Assembly: GCA_905233755.1 (NCBI GenBank)
Contig: CAJODM010000010.1
Coordinates: 18,823-82,822 of the forward strand
Reading direction: 5' to 3'
DNA length: 64,000 bases
DNA from: an uncultured Ruminococcus sp.
GTDB lineage: Bacteria; Bacillota; Clostridia; Oscillospirales; Acutalibacteraceae
Below are positions 1,661 through 62,128 of the stretch, piece after piece. Each line of letters starts with the position of its first letter. The first letter of the stretch is position 1. The notes under the pieces were generated by a model that made no database searches, was not told the DNA's origin, and saw nothing but the letters and a program-made list of their open reading frames with translations. A program made the position numbers and the translations under genes.

Positions 1661-1717
1661 CGTGCTGTTATTCTATGCGGACATTCTGTCCGTGCGGGAT
1701 GACAGTTTTATTTTTTG

Positions 1718-1842
1718 GGAATGGGTGCAGCATCATGCTGGGTTACTATATAGGATATTGATCCGGTATAGCCCCGCCGTTATGCGACAGGTACGGTCAG
1801 CACGATGGTATCAAAAGGCGGATTGGGTGCAGCATCATGCTG
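1718..1842. repeat. Two 23-bp direct repeats (1718-1740, 1820-1842) containing palindrome CAGCAT-C-ATGCTG
   Basis: GGA(A/T)TGGGTGCAGCATCATGCTG twice, 22/23 identical, 102 bp apart. Confidence 0.85.
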
Positions 1843-1846
1843 CCGG

Positions 1847-1875
1847 GAATGTTTTGTACCCATGCGGCATATACT
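1847..1875 (+). promoter_or_regulatory. Possible sigmaE-type sporulation promoter of pdaB
   Basis: GAATGTT-N14-CATATACT resembles the sigmaE consensus; pdaB is sigmaE-dependent in B. subtilis. Confidence 0.35.
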
Positions 1876-1889
1876 GTAGCGGTGATGGG

Positions 1890-2678
1890 ATGCAATTCTT
1901 GATTTTGACCAAGCGGCGGCTGCTCGTGCTGTTCTCGTGCGTGCTGATCGGTGCGCTGATGCTGACGGTGGCGGGTTCGACCGCGTCCAAGGTGGTGTCC
2001 ACCATCAGTGAGGAGCGGCGCATCCCGATCTACTATGTCGATACCGAAGAGAAGGTGTGCGCGCTGTCGTTCGACGCCGCATGGGGGAACGAGTCGACCG
2101 ATGCCCTCCTCGATATCCTTGACGAGTATGAGGTGAAGTCTACCTTCTTCCTGGTGGCGTCGTGGGTCGAGAACTACCCCGACTCGGTGAAGGAGATCGC
2201 CGCTCGCGGGCACGATATCGGCAACCACAGCGCCACCCATCCGCATATGTCAGAGCTCTCTGCCGACGGGATCCGCACCGAGATCGACACCTGTAACGAG
2301 CGGGTAAAGGAGCTCATCGGCAACTCCCCGACCCTCTTTCGGGCGCCCTACGGCGAGTATAACAACACGGTCGTCGAGACGGTGTGCGACCAATGCGGGA
2401 TGTACTGTGTCCAGTGGAACATCGACTCGCTGGACTGGAAGGACCCCACGCCCGACGAGATGGTCGCGCGCATCGGCGAGAACCTCTGTCCCGGGTCCAT
2501 CATCCTGCTGCACAACGGCGCGACCAATACCCCCGACGCGCTGCCGAAGATCATCGAGACGATCCGCGATCAGGGATATCGGATTGTGCCGATCAGCGAG
2601 CTGCTGCCCGACGGCGACTATACCACCGATCACGAGGGAAAGATGATAGTAGCTGATACTGATACTACGTTTCATTAA
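1890..2678 (+). CDS. pdaB: Polysaccharide deacetylase, PdaB-like (CE4)
   Basis: N-terminal TM anchor; ALSFDAAWG, GNHSATHPHM, FRAPYGEY, WNIDSLDW, IILLHN; start taken at ATG 1890 rather than ORF-track 1662. Confidence 0.85.
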   Translation: MQFLILTKRRLLVLFSCVLIGALMLTVAGSTASKVVSTISEERRIPIYYVDTEEKVCALSFDAAWGNESTDALLDILDEYEVKSTFFLVASWVENYPDSVKEIAARGHDIGNHSATHPHMSELSADGIRTEIDTCNERVKELIGNSPTLFRAPYGEYNNTVVETVCDQCGMYCVQWNIDSLDWKDPTPDEMVARIGENLCPGSIILLHNGATNTPDALPKIIETIRDQGYRIVPISELLPDGDYTTDHEGKMIVADTDTTFH

Positions 2679-2820
2679 AACACTTTAACATTTATTGCGT
2701 TATATTCCGCATAGCTGTGTTGTCCTCCTTGACAGGCGCCAGCCTGCCTGCGTCGTCCGCCTTGCTCTGCGAAATATCCCGCTAAAAAATTTGTTTAAGC
2801 GTTTAATGGAAACTTAGTAT
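2662..2820. other. Rod-shaped long imperfect hairpin, copy A of an apical-motif family
   Basis: ATACTA/TAGTAT ends; 2697-2715 pairs with 2764-2782; apex CAGGC-GCCA-GCCTG in 19-mer 2733-2751. Confidence 0.75.
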
Positions 2821-2870
2821 GAATAAATAAACAGGAGCGCTTATGCTAAACTTTGCATAAGCGCTCCTGT
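2821..2870 (-). terminator. Intrinsic terminator between convergent genes
   Basis: 16-bp perfect inverted repeat ACAGGAGCGCTTATGC/GCATAAGCGCTCCTGT, with a T-rich tail on the minus strand. Confidence 0.85.
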
Positions 2871-6513: not shown

Positions 6514-6730
6514 AGAACCGACTCTGACGATACGACCTCCGTCATATCGCCTCGCGGGCAAGCGCATCACAGGAGCACCGACGAGTAGAATCGGTCAAAC
6601 AGGACCGTTCCGTTCTCATGCGGCGGCTCCTCCCTGTCGCCCAAGGGCGGGGGATAGATGGGATGCTCCGCATTACGACAGGTCTCCACGCTGCCGCACC
6701 GCGAGTCACGCGGACTGATACAACCTCCTT
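6514..6730 (-). promoter_or_regulatory. Structured putative 5' leader of msmX
   Basis: Several stems on the minus strand; the only nearby GGAGG lies partly in a hairpin loop (6528-6549), 22 nt from the ATG. Confidence 0.35.
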
Positions 6731-7312
6731 CTGAATGTACGCCGCCCATAGTGTGGAGTGGACAGACGCCATGAGAATAGAATATTCTGCCAGATATACT
6801 ATCTGACATTTTCCAGTGTAACGGAAAACACGCCGAAATAGTATAGTTATATGTCACGAAAATATGCAAAAATGTTGGAATTTCTCAAAAAAGAAATATA
6901 ATAATTTTGTCCGCCCACCTGTCGGCGGAGTGTTCCTTTAGCTATTTAAAGCGCAGAATCGGCTTATTTACTGGATTTTCGTGCATAATTCGCCTGCGGA
7001 ATTATGCTGACTTTACCCTGCCAATTGGGTTGGTTGGTCATTTTCACCAATCATTTCCACGGGGAAATAGTACAAAGGAGATCCATAATGTGAGCACTTT
7101 CTGTGAAATATGCAGACAAATCGTCCCGTCAAAACCACGAAAATAGAAAGAAAACAGGAAGAATCAGCCAACAATCCAACATAATTCTATGTTATCTTAT
7201 CATTTTGCTATAGTAAAATGTTGACTGGAGGAGTAGAATAAATGTGTAAACGCATATGAGGTTGTGACCTTTGTGCAAAATTACAACAATTTTATTTTAG
7301 GAGGAAAAACGA

Positions 7313-10601: not shown

Positions 10602-10763
10602 GCTGCTGCTCATTTCAATTAACCCTTAGCATCTGTTGCGGAAGATTACGCATACCGTTGTTGTCGGGCATGACGGGCGCCGACCTGCCTGCGCCCACTG
10701 TCGCGTTCTATGTCGTTTTGTGCTAACATCCTATGATAGCTTTTATTAGAAATCAGTATCAGC
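10602..10763. other. Rod-shaped hairpin, copy B of the apical-motif family
   Basis: 38/49 ungapped identity to copy A around the apex; apex 10674-10692 matches the 19-mer at 16/19; the two ends pair. Confidence 0.7.
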
Positions 10764-26855: not shown

Positions 26856-26932
26856 TGGTGGGCCATCAGGGACTCGAACCCCGGACCGACCGGTTATGAG
26901 CCGGTGGCTCTAACCAACTGAGCTAATGGCCC
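26856..26932 (-). tRNA. tRNA with CAU anticodon, probably tRNA-Ile2 (lysidine)
   Basis: 77-nt cloverleaf GGGCCATTAGCTCAG...CTCATAA...GTTCGAGTC...CCA; C4-G69/C5-G68 fit TilS substrate; Met not fully excluded. Confidence 0.92.
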
Positions 26933-42715: not shown

Positions 42716-42742
42716 GTCATTTGCGTGACTGCACACTGATAT

Positions 42743-42923
42743 GCGATGAAGCGGGAGGTTGCAACGCGAGAGCGTTGGTTTTTCCGTGGAGTATGTCCGA
42801 TTTCAAACCGGGCGAAAGAATAGTTGGAGTTCACACGGCCGGCGGGTTTCCGCCACCGGGTTGCTATGGCCGTACTGCGCTCCGTCCGCTTCCGGTTGCC
42901 GCTCAGCGGCCATCGGGTTTTTT
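42743..42923 (+). ncRNA. rpsJ (S10) leader RNA with internal terminator-like hairpin
   Basis: GCGATGAAG.G.GAGGTTGC...TTCCGTGGAG resembles the Firmicute rpsJ leader; GAGA tetraloop; hairpin 42892-42916 followed by T6. Confidence 0.65.
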
Positions 42924-59628: not shown

Positions 59629-59772
59629 CGGACGTTTCCTCGGCACCGTAGGGACGGTGACCACACCGTCCGCCCACACGGACGTTTCCTCGGCACTGTA
59701 GGGACGGTGACCACACCGTCCGCCCACACGGACGTTTCCTCGGCACTGTAGGGACGGTGACCACACCGTCCG
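59629..59772. repeat. 50-bp tandem repeat x2.9, each with a GTAG-type REP hairpin
   Basis: Units start at 59629, 59679, 59729; GTAG-GGACGGTG-ACCA-CACCGTCC. Confidence 0.9.
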
Positions 59773-61370: not shown

Positions 61371-61847
61371 ATGTATAAGAAGAATTGGAAGACCTTTGTG
61401 CTGTGGATCCTGCTGACCGAGGCGGTCGGCGGGCTGTCGGCGCTGCTCACGCGCGACGGGATGGAGCGGTATGCCGCCGAGACGATTCAGCCGCCGCTGT
61501 CGCCGCCGTCGGTGGTGTTCCCGATCGTGTGGACGGTGCTGTACCTGCTGATGGGGATCGGCGCGGCGATGGTCGCCCTCAACGGCAGGGGCGAGGACCG
61601 GAAGATCGCGCTGTGGCTCTATGGCGGCCAGCTGCTGTTCAACTTTCTGTGGAGCATCATCTTCTTCAACATGCGGGCGTATCTGGTCGCGCTGATCTGG
61701 ATCATCGTGCTGTGGGTGCTGATCCTGTTGATGATGATCTACTTCTACCGCGTCAGCCGCACCGCCGCCCGGCTGCAGATACCGTATATCCTGTGGGTCG
61801 CCTTTGCCACCTATCTGACCGCCGCGGTGTTCGCCCTCAACGGCTAG
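61371..61847 (+). CDS. tspO: TspO/MBR tryptophan-rich sensory protein
   Basis: PP..VFPIVWTVLY.LMG, QLLFNFLWSIIFF, IPYILWVAFATYL. Confidence 0.92.
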   Translation: MYKKNWKTFVLWILLTEAVGGLSALLTRDGMERYAAETIQPPLSPPSVVFPIVWTVLYLLMGIGAAMVALNGRGEDRKIALWLYGGQLLFNFLWSIIFFNMRAYLVALIWIIVLWVLILLMMIYFYRVSRTAARLQIPYILWVAFATYLTAAVFALNG

Positions 61848-61871
61848 GCATCCGGTACAATATCCGTACTC

Positions 61872-61981
61872 GCTGAAAAATGGCAATATTTCGGCAATTC
61901 TCGGCTTATCAATCTTGGCAGGCGCCAGCCTGCCTGCACTTTCTGCACCGATACTTGCTCGAAATCTTGCTCATTTTCAGT
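61872..61981. other. Rod-shaped hairpin, copy C of the apical-motif family
   Basis: 61873-61904 pairs with 61948-61980; 19-mer 61919-61937 identical to copy A. Confidence 0.75.
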
Positions 61982-62128
61982 TCTTCTAAGTTTTGCCGGA
62001 GCAGATTTCCGTCCGATCGCGGCAAAGCCACAGGGAACCCTGACGGGTTCACGAGGATTTTAACAAAGAGCGGGCGGAAATATGCCCGTCAAAACCGGGT
62101 TCGGATATTGCATCGAATGCCTAGGTGG

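What the first reader, a model, noticed from the sequence alone, without database searches (positions are those of the whole stretch)
2662..2820. Unannotated family of rod-shaped hairpins sharing a conserved apical 19-mer (three copies in 64 kb)
Seen: CAGGCGCCAGCCTGCCTGC occurs identically at 2733-2751 and 61919-61937, and at 16/19 at 10674-10692, always intergenic and in the same orientation. Each time it sits at the exact apex of a long imperfect stem (arms about 76/79, 77/81 and 51/53 nt) with a pyrimidine-rich unpaired bubble under a 5-bp cap. Copies A and B are homologous over most of their length (38/49 ungapped near the apex). Copy C's stem has unrelated sequence but the same architecture, so structure plus apex appear conserved. 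The A-to-G change in B's cap gives a G-U pair on the + strand. Inference: a structured ncRNA family (bubble-containing decoy or protein-docking rod) or an ssDNA-folded recognition site (attC/REP-like) or MITE. I do not recognise it as a named family.
Basis: partly seen in the sequence, partly recalled or inferred. Interest (0 to 1): 0.82.

Follow-up and report, generated by a model that had tools for sequence, protein, structure and literature searches.

The report
Jumping hairpin repeats sharing one tip
The three hairpins are copies of small non-coding jumping-DNA elements (MITEs) that litter the genomes of a group of rumen and gut Clostridia, and their only unusual trait is a 25-base structured tip that stays the same while everything else, even the element ends, differs.

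Summary
The 19-mer occurs at 2733 and 61919 (exact) and 10674 (16/19), against 0.04 expected by chance.

It is not a private ncRNA gene family. It is the tip of interspersed repeats:
- 13 copies in this 1.67-Mb genome, several at contig ends.
- About 34 copies in a congener.
- At least 120 loci in rumen/gut Oscillospirales MAGs.

Copy 2733 is a 157-bp element (2663-2819) with TACTAAG...CTTAGTA ends and a TGA duplication. Of 52 distinct relatives, 45 carry a TNA duplication, and orthologous loci lack the insert. Copy 10674 is a decayed member of the same family and no longer folds. Copy 61919 lies in a 275-bp two-rod element (61847-62121) with 26-bp terminal repeats and a TA duplication.

All share a 25-nt apical module, written on the minus strand as C-GCA-[7 bp]-UGNC-[7 bp]-AA-G. 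Four of its seven stem pairs show compensatory changes, and one G.U pair is conserved. Arm mismatches are pyrimidine-pyrimidine on plus, so purine-purine on minus, which folds about 12 kcal/mol better.

Insertion orientation relative to genes is random, and the diverged copy at 10674 has decayed. No Rfam family matches, and no partner transposase was found.

Verdict: a new MITE superfamily with an unexplained, strand-specific conserved tip.

The parts
2663..2819 (-).
   Evidence: The limits come from matches to other copies in G000, G019 and G004. Folding: - strand -59 kcal/mol, z -6.5; + strand -44.9, z -3.4.
2660..2662 (.). Left copy of the 3-bp target-site duplication TGA of the 2733 element.
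   Evidence: TGA directly flanks both ends. TNA duplications are present in 45/52 distinct family members.
2820..2822 (.). Right copy of the target-site duplication TGA.
   Evidence: With the insert and one TGA removed, the ORF would read ...ADTE*. Orthologues in G019, G002 and G016 have no insert.
2728..2752 (-). Apical module of copy A. On the minus strand it reads CGCA-GGCAGGC-UGGC-GCCUGUC-AAG: a 7-bp cap with one G.U pair, a UGGC loop, and a 3x2 internal loop GCA/AA closed by a C-G pair.
10609..10760 (-). The ends are degenerate and the rod is no longer thermodynamically favoured.
   Evidence: 76% identity over 155 nt to the L065-type subfamily, E 1e-24. Fold z -0.4 and +0.3.
10669..10693 (-). 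Degenerate apical module of the decayed copy (16/19 in the 19-mer). In the 7-bp cap one pair is lost (A.C), the former closing C-G pair has become a U.G wobble, and the loop has changed to CGGC.
61847..62121 (.). It is flanked by TA at 61845-61846 and 62122-62123.
   Evidence: 279-bp matches at 95% and 90% to G000 C15:10949-11227 and C20. The alignment of 13 copies shows TA on both sides in nearly all.
61847..61872 (+). Left terminal inverted repeat of the family-2 element.
   Evidence: A 28-nt inverted repeat (including TA) pairs with 62096-62123 at 93%.
62096..62121 (-). Right terminal inverted repeat of the family-2 element.
61872..61982 (-). Rod 1 of the family-2 element, with the 19-mer at its apex.
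   Evidence: Fold of 61869-61986: + strand -46.3 kcal/mol, z -8.2; - strand -47.7, z -6.1.
61914..61939 (-). Apical module of rod 1. On the minus strand it reads UGCA-GGCAGGC-UGGC-GCCUGCC-AAG, with the G.U pair replaced by G-C.
61990..62095 (+). Rod 2 of the family-2 element: a second long hairpin with a module-like tip on the opposite strand.
   Evidence: Fold of 61988-62097: + strand -46.9 kcal/mol, z -5.3; - strand -46.0, z -4.9.
62029..62055 (+). Module-like tip of rod 2: CACAG-GGAACCC-UGAC-GGGUUC-ACGAG. It has the same UGNC loop and purine flanks. The stem covaries in relatives (L075: UAAUAC-UGAC-GUAUUA).

Best explanation
[quoted passage not shown] These are short, non-coding, non-autonomous DNA transposons moved in trans by a DDE-type transposase.

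- One class has TACTAAG ends and duplicates a TNA triplet, as Tourist / IS5-family elements do (copies 2733 and 10674).
- A second class has GGCATCC / AGGGCACC-type ends and duplicates TA (copy 61919).

Each element is almost entirely one long imperfect palindrome, or two in the composite family-2 element.

Shown:
- the repeats, their limits, the target duplications and the absence of the insert at orthologous loci;
- the decay of the diverged copy at 10674;
- the covarying cap and the strand asymmetry.

Inferred: Selection on the propagating (master) elements keeps it, and it works in single-stranded form, either as RNA when a copy is transcribed or as a DNA hairpin. It is not kept by selection on individual insertions for the host's benefit.

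The most likely job is one of two. It may be a docking or processing site for a protein that the element needs to be mobilised. Or it may make the folded transcript harmless or stable. I put about 0.9 on 'MITE superfamily', about 0.5 on 'the tip is a selected single-strand signal', and no more than about 0.3 on either specific job.
For: Repeat nature:
- 13 copies of the 19-mer lie in the genome, several at contig ends.
- At least 120 loci were found in public genomes. Nearly all are rumen/gut 'Ruminococcus'/Oscillospiraceae/Clostridia MAGs, plus 4 chance hits in unrelated taxa.
- The family-1 end 27-mer occurs 34 times in G019 and 33 times in G004.

Mobility:
- A TNA duplication flanks 45/52 distinct full-length family-1 copies (TAA 24, TTA 10, TGA 7, TCA 4). 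TA flanks family 2 and the AGGGCACC family.
- The orthologous gene ends in G019, G002 and G016 carry no insert.
- A family-3 copy is inserted into one copy of another repeat that has at least 10 uninterrupted copies.

Tip:
- 11 distinct module variants are 98.9% paired. Four of 7 stem pairs change on both sides, and 0/500 shuffles reach this.
- The loop stays UGNC, and the G.U at stem pair 2 is kept in 7/11 variants.
- The same tip alleles occur in both terminal-repeat classes.

Strand asymmetry:
- The minus strand is more stable in 75/85 distinct copies, by 12 kcal/mol on average.
- Arm mismatches are Y.Y on plus in 188 cases against 31 R.R, with C.T outnumbering A.G in each of 17 representatives.

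Selection on masters rather than on insertions:
- Orientation to neighbouring genes is random (17/12/10/12).
- The diverged copy at 10674 has lost the fold.
- No internal promoter lies in copy 2733.
Against: - No autonomous partner with matching ends was found in G000 or its relatives, including G019, which holds about 34 copies of the family-1 end sequence. The families searched were PF01609, PF13359, PF13586, PF13358, PF00665 and PF01797 (ends inspected). Most of these genomes are MAGs, where IS copies are often lost.
- A DDE cut-and-paste reaction has no known need for a central hairpin or a single-stranded stage, so the proposed cis role has no precedent that I can cite.
- Compensatory-looking changes in a DNA palindrome can also arise from template switching between the arms without selection.
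- The exact-19-mer scan is biased towards intact tips. The unbiased sample (found through the arms) is small: about 22 copies from 8 genomes.
- Family 2 shows no strand asymmetry and carries the two tips on opposite strands.
Confidence: 0.6

Rival explanations
1. Passive MITEs with no function in the tip. On this view the shared tip is common descent plus recent horizontal spread. Its pairing is kept by DNA-level processes that homogenise palindrome arms (template switching, hairpin-templated repair), not by selection.
For: - The distribution is patchy, as horizontal spread would give: 7 of 301 genomes and 4 of 153 genera of the order, and none in 18 genomes of other genera of the same family.
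- The diverged copy at 10674 has decayed.
- Orientation is random.
- Copies within a genome are near-identical, so many 'conserved' cells are not independent.
Against: - Arm-homogenising processes act on both strands alike. They do not predict the 188:31 excess of pyrimidine-pyrimidine mismatches on one strand in every family. They also do not predict a G.U/A.C position kept through three different stem alleles.
- The arms and even the terminal repeats have diverged beyond recognition between families, while 24 nt of the tip stay identical.
Confidence: 0.22
2. A host-level structured RNA or protein-docking family. On this view the rods are domesticated, and each copy acts as an sRNA, decoy or cis-regulatory 3'/5' UTR element for the cell.
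For: - The folds are strong (z down to -8.2).
- The cap covaries.
- The module-sense strand is purine-rich with many G.A oppositions, as in protein-binding RNA loops.
- Copy 2733 is certainly transcribed on the + strand, because the stop codon of ORF 1662-2678 lies inside it.
Against: - Orientation shows no preference relative to flanking genes.
- No promoter lies in copy 2733.
- Copy 10674 has decayed.
- Copies are absent from orthologous loci of congeners.
- In copy 2733 the strand known to be transcribed is the worse-folding one.
- No Rfam family matches.
Confidence: 0.1
3. The tip itself is the mobile or exchangeable unit. On this view a small hairpin cassette is recognised by a structure-specific single-strand enzyme and is placed into, or swapped between, the apices of different palindromic elements.
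For: - The same tip alleles (CAGGC..GCCTG and AATAC..GTATT, which differ at three stem pairs) occur in both terminal-repeat classes.
- Chimeric copies change arm family exactly at the tip (C6:54703).
- A roughly 87-110-nt extra segment sits at the same place next to the tip in two arm families.
- In copy 2733 the cap is flanked by a 12/15 direct repeat (read).
Against: - No rod of a tip-bearing family was seen with a clean empty apex.
- The flanking direct repeat is weak in other subfamilies (7-10 of 15, by eye).
- Homologous recombination at a shared 24-nt identity explains the chimeras.
- Y1 (HUH) transposases are absent from G000 and G004.
Confidence: 0.08

Closest known systems
ERIC / IRU elements of Enterobacteria and Vibrio (127-bp imperfect palindromes; reviewed in PMC3184786, PMC2229807, PMC10969869)
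   Same: - Both are interspersed, mostly intergenic, whole-length imperfect palindromes of 120-170 bp.
- Both are MITE-like, with a short TA-type duplication.
- Both fold as long hairpins when transcribed. In ERIC, orientation-dependent effects on mRNA decay through RNase E are reported (PMC10969869).
   Different: - The sequence and the host phylum are unrelated.
- Here several arm and terminal-repeat families share one covarying 25-nt tip.
- There are two duplication types (TNA and TA).
- There is a family-wide purine/pyrimidine strand asymmetry.
- No effect on transcripts has been tested here.
Correia elements (CREE/NEMIS) of Neisseria
   Same: - Both are about 100-160-bp MITEs with a TA duplication and dozens to hundreds of copies.
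- Correia has a functional motif in its centre (an IHF site in the long form).
- Correia transcripts fold into hairpins that RNase III cuts (PMC10969869).
   Different: - The Correia centre is a duplex DNA protein site and does not covary as a hairpin.
- Correia has one terminal-repeat family.
- The mechanism of the tip here is unknown.
Tourist-type MITEs / IS5-family elements with a 3-bp TNA (TWA) duplication (IS1031/ISL2 groups, PIF/Harbinger). This comparison is from my own knowledge of ISfinder classes.
   Same: The 3-bp TNA target duplication, the short terminal inverted repeats, and a non-coding size of about 160 bp.
   Different: - No IS5-family partner with matching ends was found in G000 or the relatives searched.
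- The terminal sequence TACTAAG was not compared with ISfinder, which was not available.
REP / REPIN elements with RAYT (PMC3116915)
   Same: Both are abundant intergenic hairpin-forming repeats. In REPINs a single-strand hairpin is the presumed substrate of a dedicated enzyme.
   Different: - REPs are 20-40 nt with a conserved GTAG at the base and no target duplication, and they need a RAYT gene.
- Here the conserved part is the apex and duplications are present.
- No Y1/RAYT gene is in G000.

Membership tests
MITE (non-autonomous DDE transposon) | Many interspersed copies of a short non-coding unit with defined ends | tested here: met
   13 tip-bearing copies lie in G000. The end motif occurs 34 times in G019 and 33 times in G004. 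At least 120 loci were found in public genomes. The limits are sharp in alignments.
MITE (non-autonomous DDE transposon) | Terminal inverted repeats | tested here: met
   Family 1 has TACTAAGT...ACTTAGTA ends. Family 2 has a 26-28-nt terminal repeat. The AGGGCACCTCTAAAA family also has terminal repeats.
MITE (non-autonomous DDE transposon) | Target-site duplication of fixed length that differs in sequence between copies | tested here: met
   TNA is identical on both sides in 45/52 distinct copies, with all four middle bases seen. TA flanks the second class.
MITE (non-autonomous DDE transposon) | Presence/absence polymorphism at orthologous or paralogous sites | tested here: met
   Orthologues of ORF 1662-2678 in G019, G002 and G016 end without the insert. 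Filled and empty copies of a host repeat occur within G000. No exact empty site at nucleotide resolution was recovered for the window copies.
MITE (non-autonomous DDE transposon) | An autonomous IS with the same ends somewhere in the host range | tested here: not met
   Six transposase Pfam families were searched in G000 and up to 40 relatives. The ISs found have unrelated ends. A scan for end pairs in 61 congeners found only MITE-sized pairs. Absence from MAGs is weak evidence.
IS5-family / Tourist-like MITE | 3-bp TNA duplication | tested here: met
IS5-family / Tourist-like MITE | End sequence related to a catalogued IS5-family member | not testable with these tools
   ISfinder was not on hand.
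REP/REPIN-RAYT | Short palindrome with a conserved base motif, no target duplication, and a RAYT (Y1_Tnp) gene in the genome | tested here: not met
   Duplications are present. The conserved part is the apex. PF01797 is absent from G000 and G004.
IS200/IS605-derived PATE | No duplication, insertion 3' of a fixed tetra/pentanucleotide, and a Y1 transposase | tested here: not met
Integron attC site | Conserved R/L boxes at the base of the stem and a variable apex | tested here: not met
   The pattern here is the opposite: the apex is conserved, and the bases differ between families. An integrase was not searched for.
Any Rfam RNA family (6S, SRP, riboswitches, omega/HEARO RNAs and others) | A covariance-model match | tested here: not met
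   No match at gathering threshold in the window. No credible match in E-value mode on the copies or on six related loci. There were only chance miRNA-like or terminator-driven hits.
CRISPR-repeat mimic | Likeness to the resident CRISPR repeat | tested here: not met
   The G000 array (contig C5:2700-3300) has an unrelated repeat, GATGCAATCCACGTAGTGAGCGCTGAGGCAAAG. Only the GCCA loop recalls type I-E repeats, and that resemblance is from memory.

The most novel reading that the evidence does not exclude
The 25-nt tip may be a portable, strand-specific recognition hairpin (RNA or single-stranded DNA) for a mobilisation or processing machinery that has not been described. It would be a second cis signal that MITEs with different ends and different target duplications all need, and that can pass between them. 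This would explain four things:
- why the tip is identical across arm families and bacterial families;
- why its stem covaries;
- why one strand is built to fold;
- why no ordinary partner transposase turns up.

Unchecked AI notes from this scan describe look-alike cases in Desulfobacterota, CPR bacteria and others. If those cases are the same phenomenon, it would be a general and overlooked class of bacterial mobile hairpins.
Probability: 0.2. Interest if true: 0.8.

Novelty: new variant of a known kind. Interest (0 to 1): 0.5.

Why it matters
For annotation:
- These 150-280-bp elements break MAG assemblies; many copies lie at contig ends.
- They rewrite gene ends; the deacetylase-like ORF 1662-2678 now ends in element sequence.
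- They can be mistaken for sRNA genes or leaders, as two other first-stage notes on this window did.

For biology:
- MITEs are the least studied bacterial mobile elements.
- A tip that stays fixed and covaries while the arms, ends and duplication type change is not explained by what DDE transposases are known to need.
- If the tip is a cis signal read in single-stranded form, it points to an unknown step or partner in the mobilisation of bacterial MITEs, or to a way in which such elements control the fate of transcripts that run through them.

A cultured carrier exists for testing: Neglectibacter sp. X58 (locus L016).

Tried and rejected
- **Rfam.** The gathering-threshold run on the window and four E-value runs found nothing at the copies. 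A sub-threshold rli38 hit in L054 is driven by a neighbouring terminator.
- **Recurrent neighbour genes.** ORF clustering within 4 kb of 120 loci gave only housekeeping genes. An apparent 13-locus ABC-F neighbour was a domain-level artefact.
- **Partner transposase.** PF01609, PF13359, PF13586, PF13358, PF00665 and PF01797 were searched. The IS ends found are unrelated. A search for end pairs 1-2 kb apart in 61 congeners found only MITE-sized pairs.
- **Separated half-tips.** None occur in G000.
- **G.U bias as a strand test.** Wobble counts are about equal (70 against 56). The asymmetry lies in transversion mismatches.
- **RNAalifold on 54 family-1 copies.** Uninformative: -20.4 against -24.0, with a poor alignment.
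- **Internal promoter.** TTGACA in the tip has no -10 partner (and by eye). The ssDNA-promoter/6S idea was dropped.
- **Other motifs, by eye.** I found no k-turn, CsrA site, anti-SD/SD motif, conserved mini-ORF, dif/Xer site, parS, Chi or HUH nick site (CTTGA/TCAA). None is conserved across subfamilies.
- **CRISPR-repeat mimicry.** Rejected.
- **Plasmid and phage collections.** No plasmid hit. There was one 'phage' contig that looks bacterial.
- **Literature search for the sequence.** Zero hits.
- **Rod 1 / rod 2 homology in family 2.** The alignment was not convincing. Only the architecture and short strings are shared.
Full report
**Naming.** I refer to them by coordinate.

**1. The observation.** The 19-mer CAGGCGCCAGCCTGCCTGC is at 2733-2751 and 61919-61937 (exact) and at 10674-10692 (16/19). 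All three are on the + strand. Chance expectation is 0.04 matches.
- Copy 2733 folds into a long rod. The + strand gives -44.9 kcal/mol (z -3.4) and the - strand -59.0 (z -6.5).
- Copy 61919 caps a 111-nt rod (z -8.2 on +, -6.1 on -).
- Copy 10674 folds no better than shuffled sequence (z -0.4 and +0.3).

**2. It is a genome-wide repeat.**
- The window is C10:18823-82822 of a 1.67-Mb, 41-contig genome with 57.8% G+C.
- That genome has 10 exact, 2 one-mismatch and 1 three-mismatch copies of the 19-mer. Three lie within 100 bases of a contig end.
- BLAST of the flanks sorts the copies into families whose arms are unrelated.
  - Family 1: copy 2733 and C10:87348, plus three 'long' forms carrying an extra segment of about 87 nt beside the tip.
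  - Family 2: copy 61919, C15 and C20.
  - Family 3: copies at contig ends.
Nearly all are rumen, hindgut or human-gut MAGs labelled Ruminococcus sp., Oscillospiraceae or Clostridia bacterium. Four hits without arms in unrelated taxa are the chance background.
- These loci add further arm families. All of them carry cTTGA (or TTGG) directly 5' of the 19-mer.

**3. The copies are MITEs.**
It also shows many copies in congeners.
- An alignment of 22 copies found through this search shows the ends TACTAAG...CTTAGTA.
- In 52 distinct full-length copies with flanks, the three bases outside the two ends are identical in 45. They read TAA (24), TTA (10), TGA (7) or TCA (4). This is a 3-bp TNA target-site duplication.
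- The family-1 end 27-mer occurs 6 times in G000, 34 times in G019 (17 of them exact) and 33 times in G004.
- Copy 2733 is 2663-2819, flanked by TGA on both sides.
- It was inserted into the last codons of ORF 1662-2678, a polysaccharide-deacetylase-like gene judged by its conserved C-terminal region. The ORF's stop codon now lies in the element.
- Orthologues in G019, G002 and G016 end without any insert.
- Copy 10674 matches another subfamily of family 1 at 76% over 155 nt (E 1e-24). It is an old, decaying copy.
- Copy 61919 belongs to a 275-bp element (61847-62121) with 26-nt terminal inverted repeats and TA on both sides. TA flanks nearly all of 13 aligned relatives.
- A third group, with AGGGCACCTCTAAAA ends, also duplicates TA. 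One member is in G000 at C15:40862-41027.

**4. Anatomy of the family-2 element.** Between its terminal repeats lie two rods.
- Rod 1 (61872-61982) carries the 19-mer.
- Rod 2 (61990-62095) folds as well (z -5.3 and -4.9). Its tip (62029-62055, + strand) has the same design as the tip of rod 1 read on the - strand: purine flank, 6-8-bp stem, UGAC loop, purine flank.
- The stem of rod 2 covaries in relatives: GAACCC/GGGTTC against TAATAC/GTATTA.
- The two rods thus present the tip on opposite strands. Their homology could not be shown by alignment.

**5. The apical module.**
- Read on the minus strand, the conserved 25 nt are C-GCA-GGCAGGC-UGGC-GCCUGUC-AA-G. This is a 7-bp cap with one G.U pair, a tetraloop, and a 3x2 internal loop closed by a C-G pair. 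The same layout appears in every arm family drawn.
- Copies found through their arms, not through the 19-mer, carry other stems:
  - GGCAUAC/GUAUGUC in G019 and G000 C16;
  - GCAAGGC/GCCUUGC in G008 and G003;
  - GGAAUAC/GUAUUCC or GUAUUUC in G006, G015 and G000 C15.
- The loops in these copies are UGGC, UGAC or UGUC.
- On 11 distinct variants, 98.9% of cells pair. Four of the seven stem pairs change on both sides (17 cells), no shuffle out of 500 reaches this, and slid controls collapse.
- Stem pair 2 is G.U in 7 of the 11, across three stem alleles. On the + strand this is an A.C mismatch.
- A descriptor for the module finds 6 sites in G000 and none in three shuffled genomes.
- The CAGGC and AATAC alleles both occur in family 1 and in the AGGGCACC family.

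**6. Strand asymmetry.**
- In 75 of 85 distinct copies the minus strand folds better, by 12 kcal/mol on average. This holds in seven of eight arm families. Family 2 is neutral.
- The cause is not wobble pairs (70 against 56). It is the transversion mismatches between the arms. On the + strand they are C.T, C.C or T.T in 188 cases and A.G, A.A or G.G in 31. C.T outnumbers A.G in each of 17 representatives.
- Processes that act on duplex DNA do not predict this. Something reads or selects one strand.

**7. What is not there.**
- Orientation relative to flanking genes shows no preference (+E+ 17, -E- 12, -E+ 10, +E- 12).
- Copy 2733 has no promoter-like site.
- Rfam gives nothing, and the sequence is in no held paper.
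- The resident CRISPR repeat is unrelated.
- The motif is patchy across the order: 7 of 301 genomes and 4 of 153 genera, and none in 18 genomes of other genera of the same family. This fits horizontal spread.
- No partner transposase with matching ends was found.

**8. Mechanism.**

Shown: these are non-autonomous transposons of the cut-and-paste (DDE) style. They fall into two duplication classes, which from my knowledge of ISfinder both occur in the IS5 family (IS1031/ISL2/IS427 groups).

Inferred: the tip is kept by selection on the lineages that still propagate, not on individual insertions. Three observations point this way. Orientation is random, the diverged copy at 10674 has decayed, and young copies in different arm families keep the tip. 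That is the pattern of a cis-required transposon sequence.

The strand asymmetry, the conserved G.U and the two-orientation design of family 2 argue that the tip is read in single-stranded form.

Known parallels are RNase III cutting of Correia hairpins and RNase E effects of ERIC (PMC10969869).

The main rival is a passive MITE whose palindrome is homogenised at the DNA level. It explains the pairing but not the asymmetry.

**9. Comparison and novelty.**
- The nearest known things are ERIC/IRU, Correia and Tourist-type MITEs.
- Membership in REP/REPIN, PATE, attC, CRISPR-like or any Rfam family fails on tested features.
- The family as such is a new member of a known kind.
- The shared, covarying, strand-specific tip across terminal-repeat and duplication classes makes it a new variant.
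- Unchecked AI notes of this scan report similar 'palindromic MITE with conserved apex' cases in other phyla. I treat these as a lead only.

**10. Limits.**
- The 120 public loci were chosen by the exact 19-mer, so conservation measured on them is biased.
- Many copies are near-identical and not independent.
- Most genomes are MAGs.
- No expression data could be used.

Noticed in passing
window 59629-59772 (G000 C10:78450-78600); also G000 C6:114760-114900, C12:521-700, C12:15093-15400: These are tandem arrays of a 34-50-nt unit...CCGTAGGGACGGTGACCACACCGTCCG..., each holding a perfect 8-bp hairpin GGACGGTG-ACCA-CACCGTCC preceded by GTAG. The arrays look REP-like, yet no Y1/RAYT gene (PF01797) is in this genome.
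   Followed up: partly
G000 contigs C2:8257, C2:21285, C4:2383, C9:46631, C12:47207, C14:15114, C16:15459, C21:3440, C21:27939, C24:1996, C30:1953 (outside the window): A second, unrelated repeat of about 200 bp has ends GGGGCTGTCGCA...TGCGACAGCCCC, at least 13 copies at 95-98% identity, and no tip motif. One copy hosts a family-3 insertion, giving filled and empty sites in one genome.
   Followed up: partly
window 1662-2678 / 2660-2822: The MITE insertion replaced the C-terminal end of the deacetylase-like protein. It now ends ...VADTDTTFH*, where the pre-insertion sequence would give ...VADTE*.
   Followed up: yes
G000 C7:55305-55559, C20:5694-5940, C26:18152-18398; L054:968-1229; L005, L018, L022: 'Long' forms of two different arm families carry an extra structured segment of about 87-110 nt at the same place, directly 3' of the tip on the module-sense strand. 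The segment includes a covarying hairpin CCCCACAACGC/GCGTTGTGGGG. Its origin, whether a nested element or an ancestral piece lost in the short forms, is unresolved.
   Followed up: partly
G000 C20:5694-6205: A family-1 long copy and a family-2 copy lie back to back in opposite orientation within 512 bp. Their junction is a 28-nt inverted repeat.
   Followed up: no
L008:5583-5641 and L044:2077-2144: Two 19-mers lie 40-49 nt apart, separated by runs of N. These are probably scaffolding artefacts at collapsed repeats, not tandem tips.
   Followed up: no
G000 C5:2700-3300: A CRISPR array of about 10 repeats (GATGCAATCCACGTAGTGAGCGCTGAGGCAAAG). Two spacers occur twice.
   Followed up: no
window 6614-6776 (-), 26859-26932 (-), 42737-42815 (+): Rfam matches above the gathering score: malK-I RNA, a tRNA, and the S10-Clostridia ribosomal protein leader.
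   Followed up: no
L122 (G004 C1, about 60 nt after the orthologous gene's stop): A solitary TACTAATCCTTGATA end of a family-1-like element lies downstream of the orthologue of ORF 1662-2678. It may be a remnant of an independent insertion near the same gene end.
   Followed up: no
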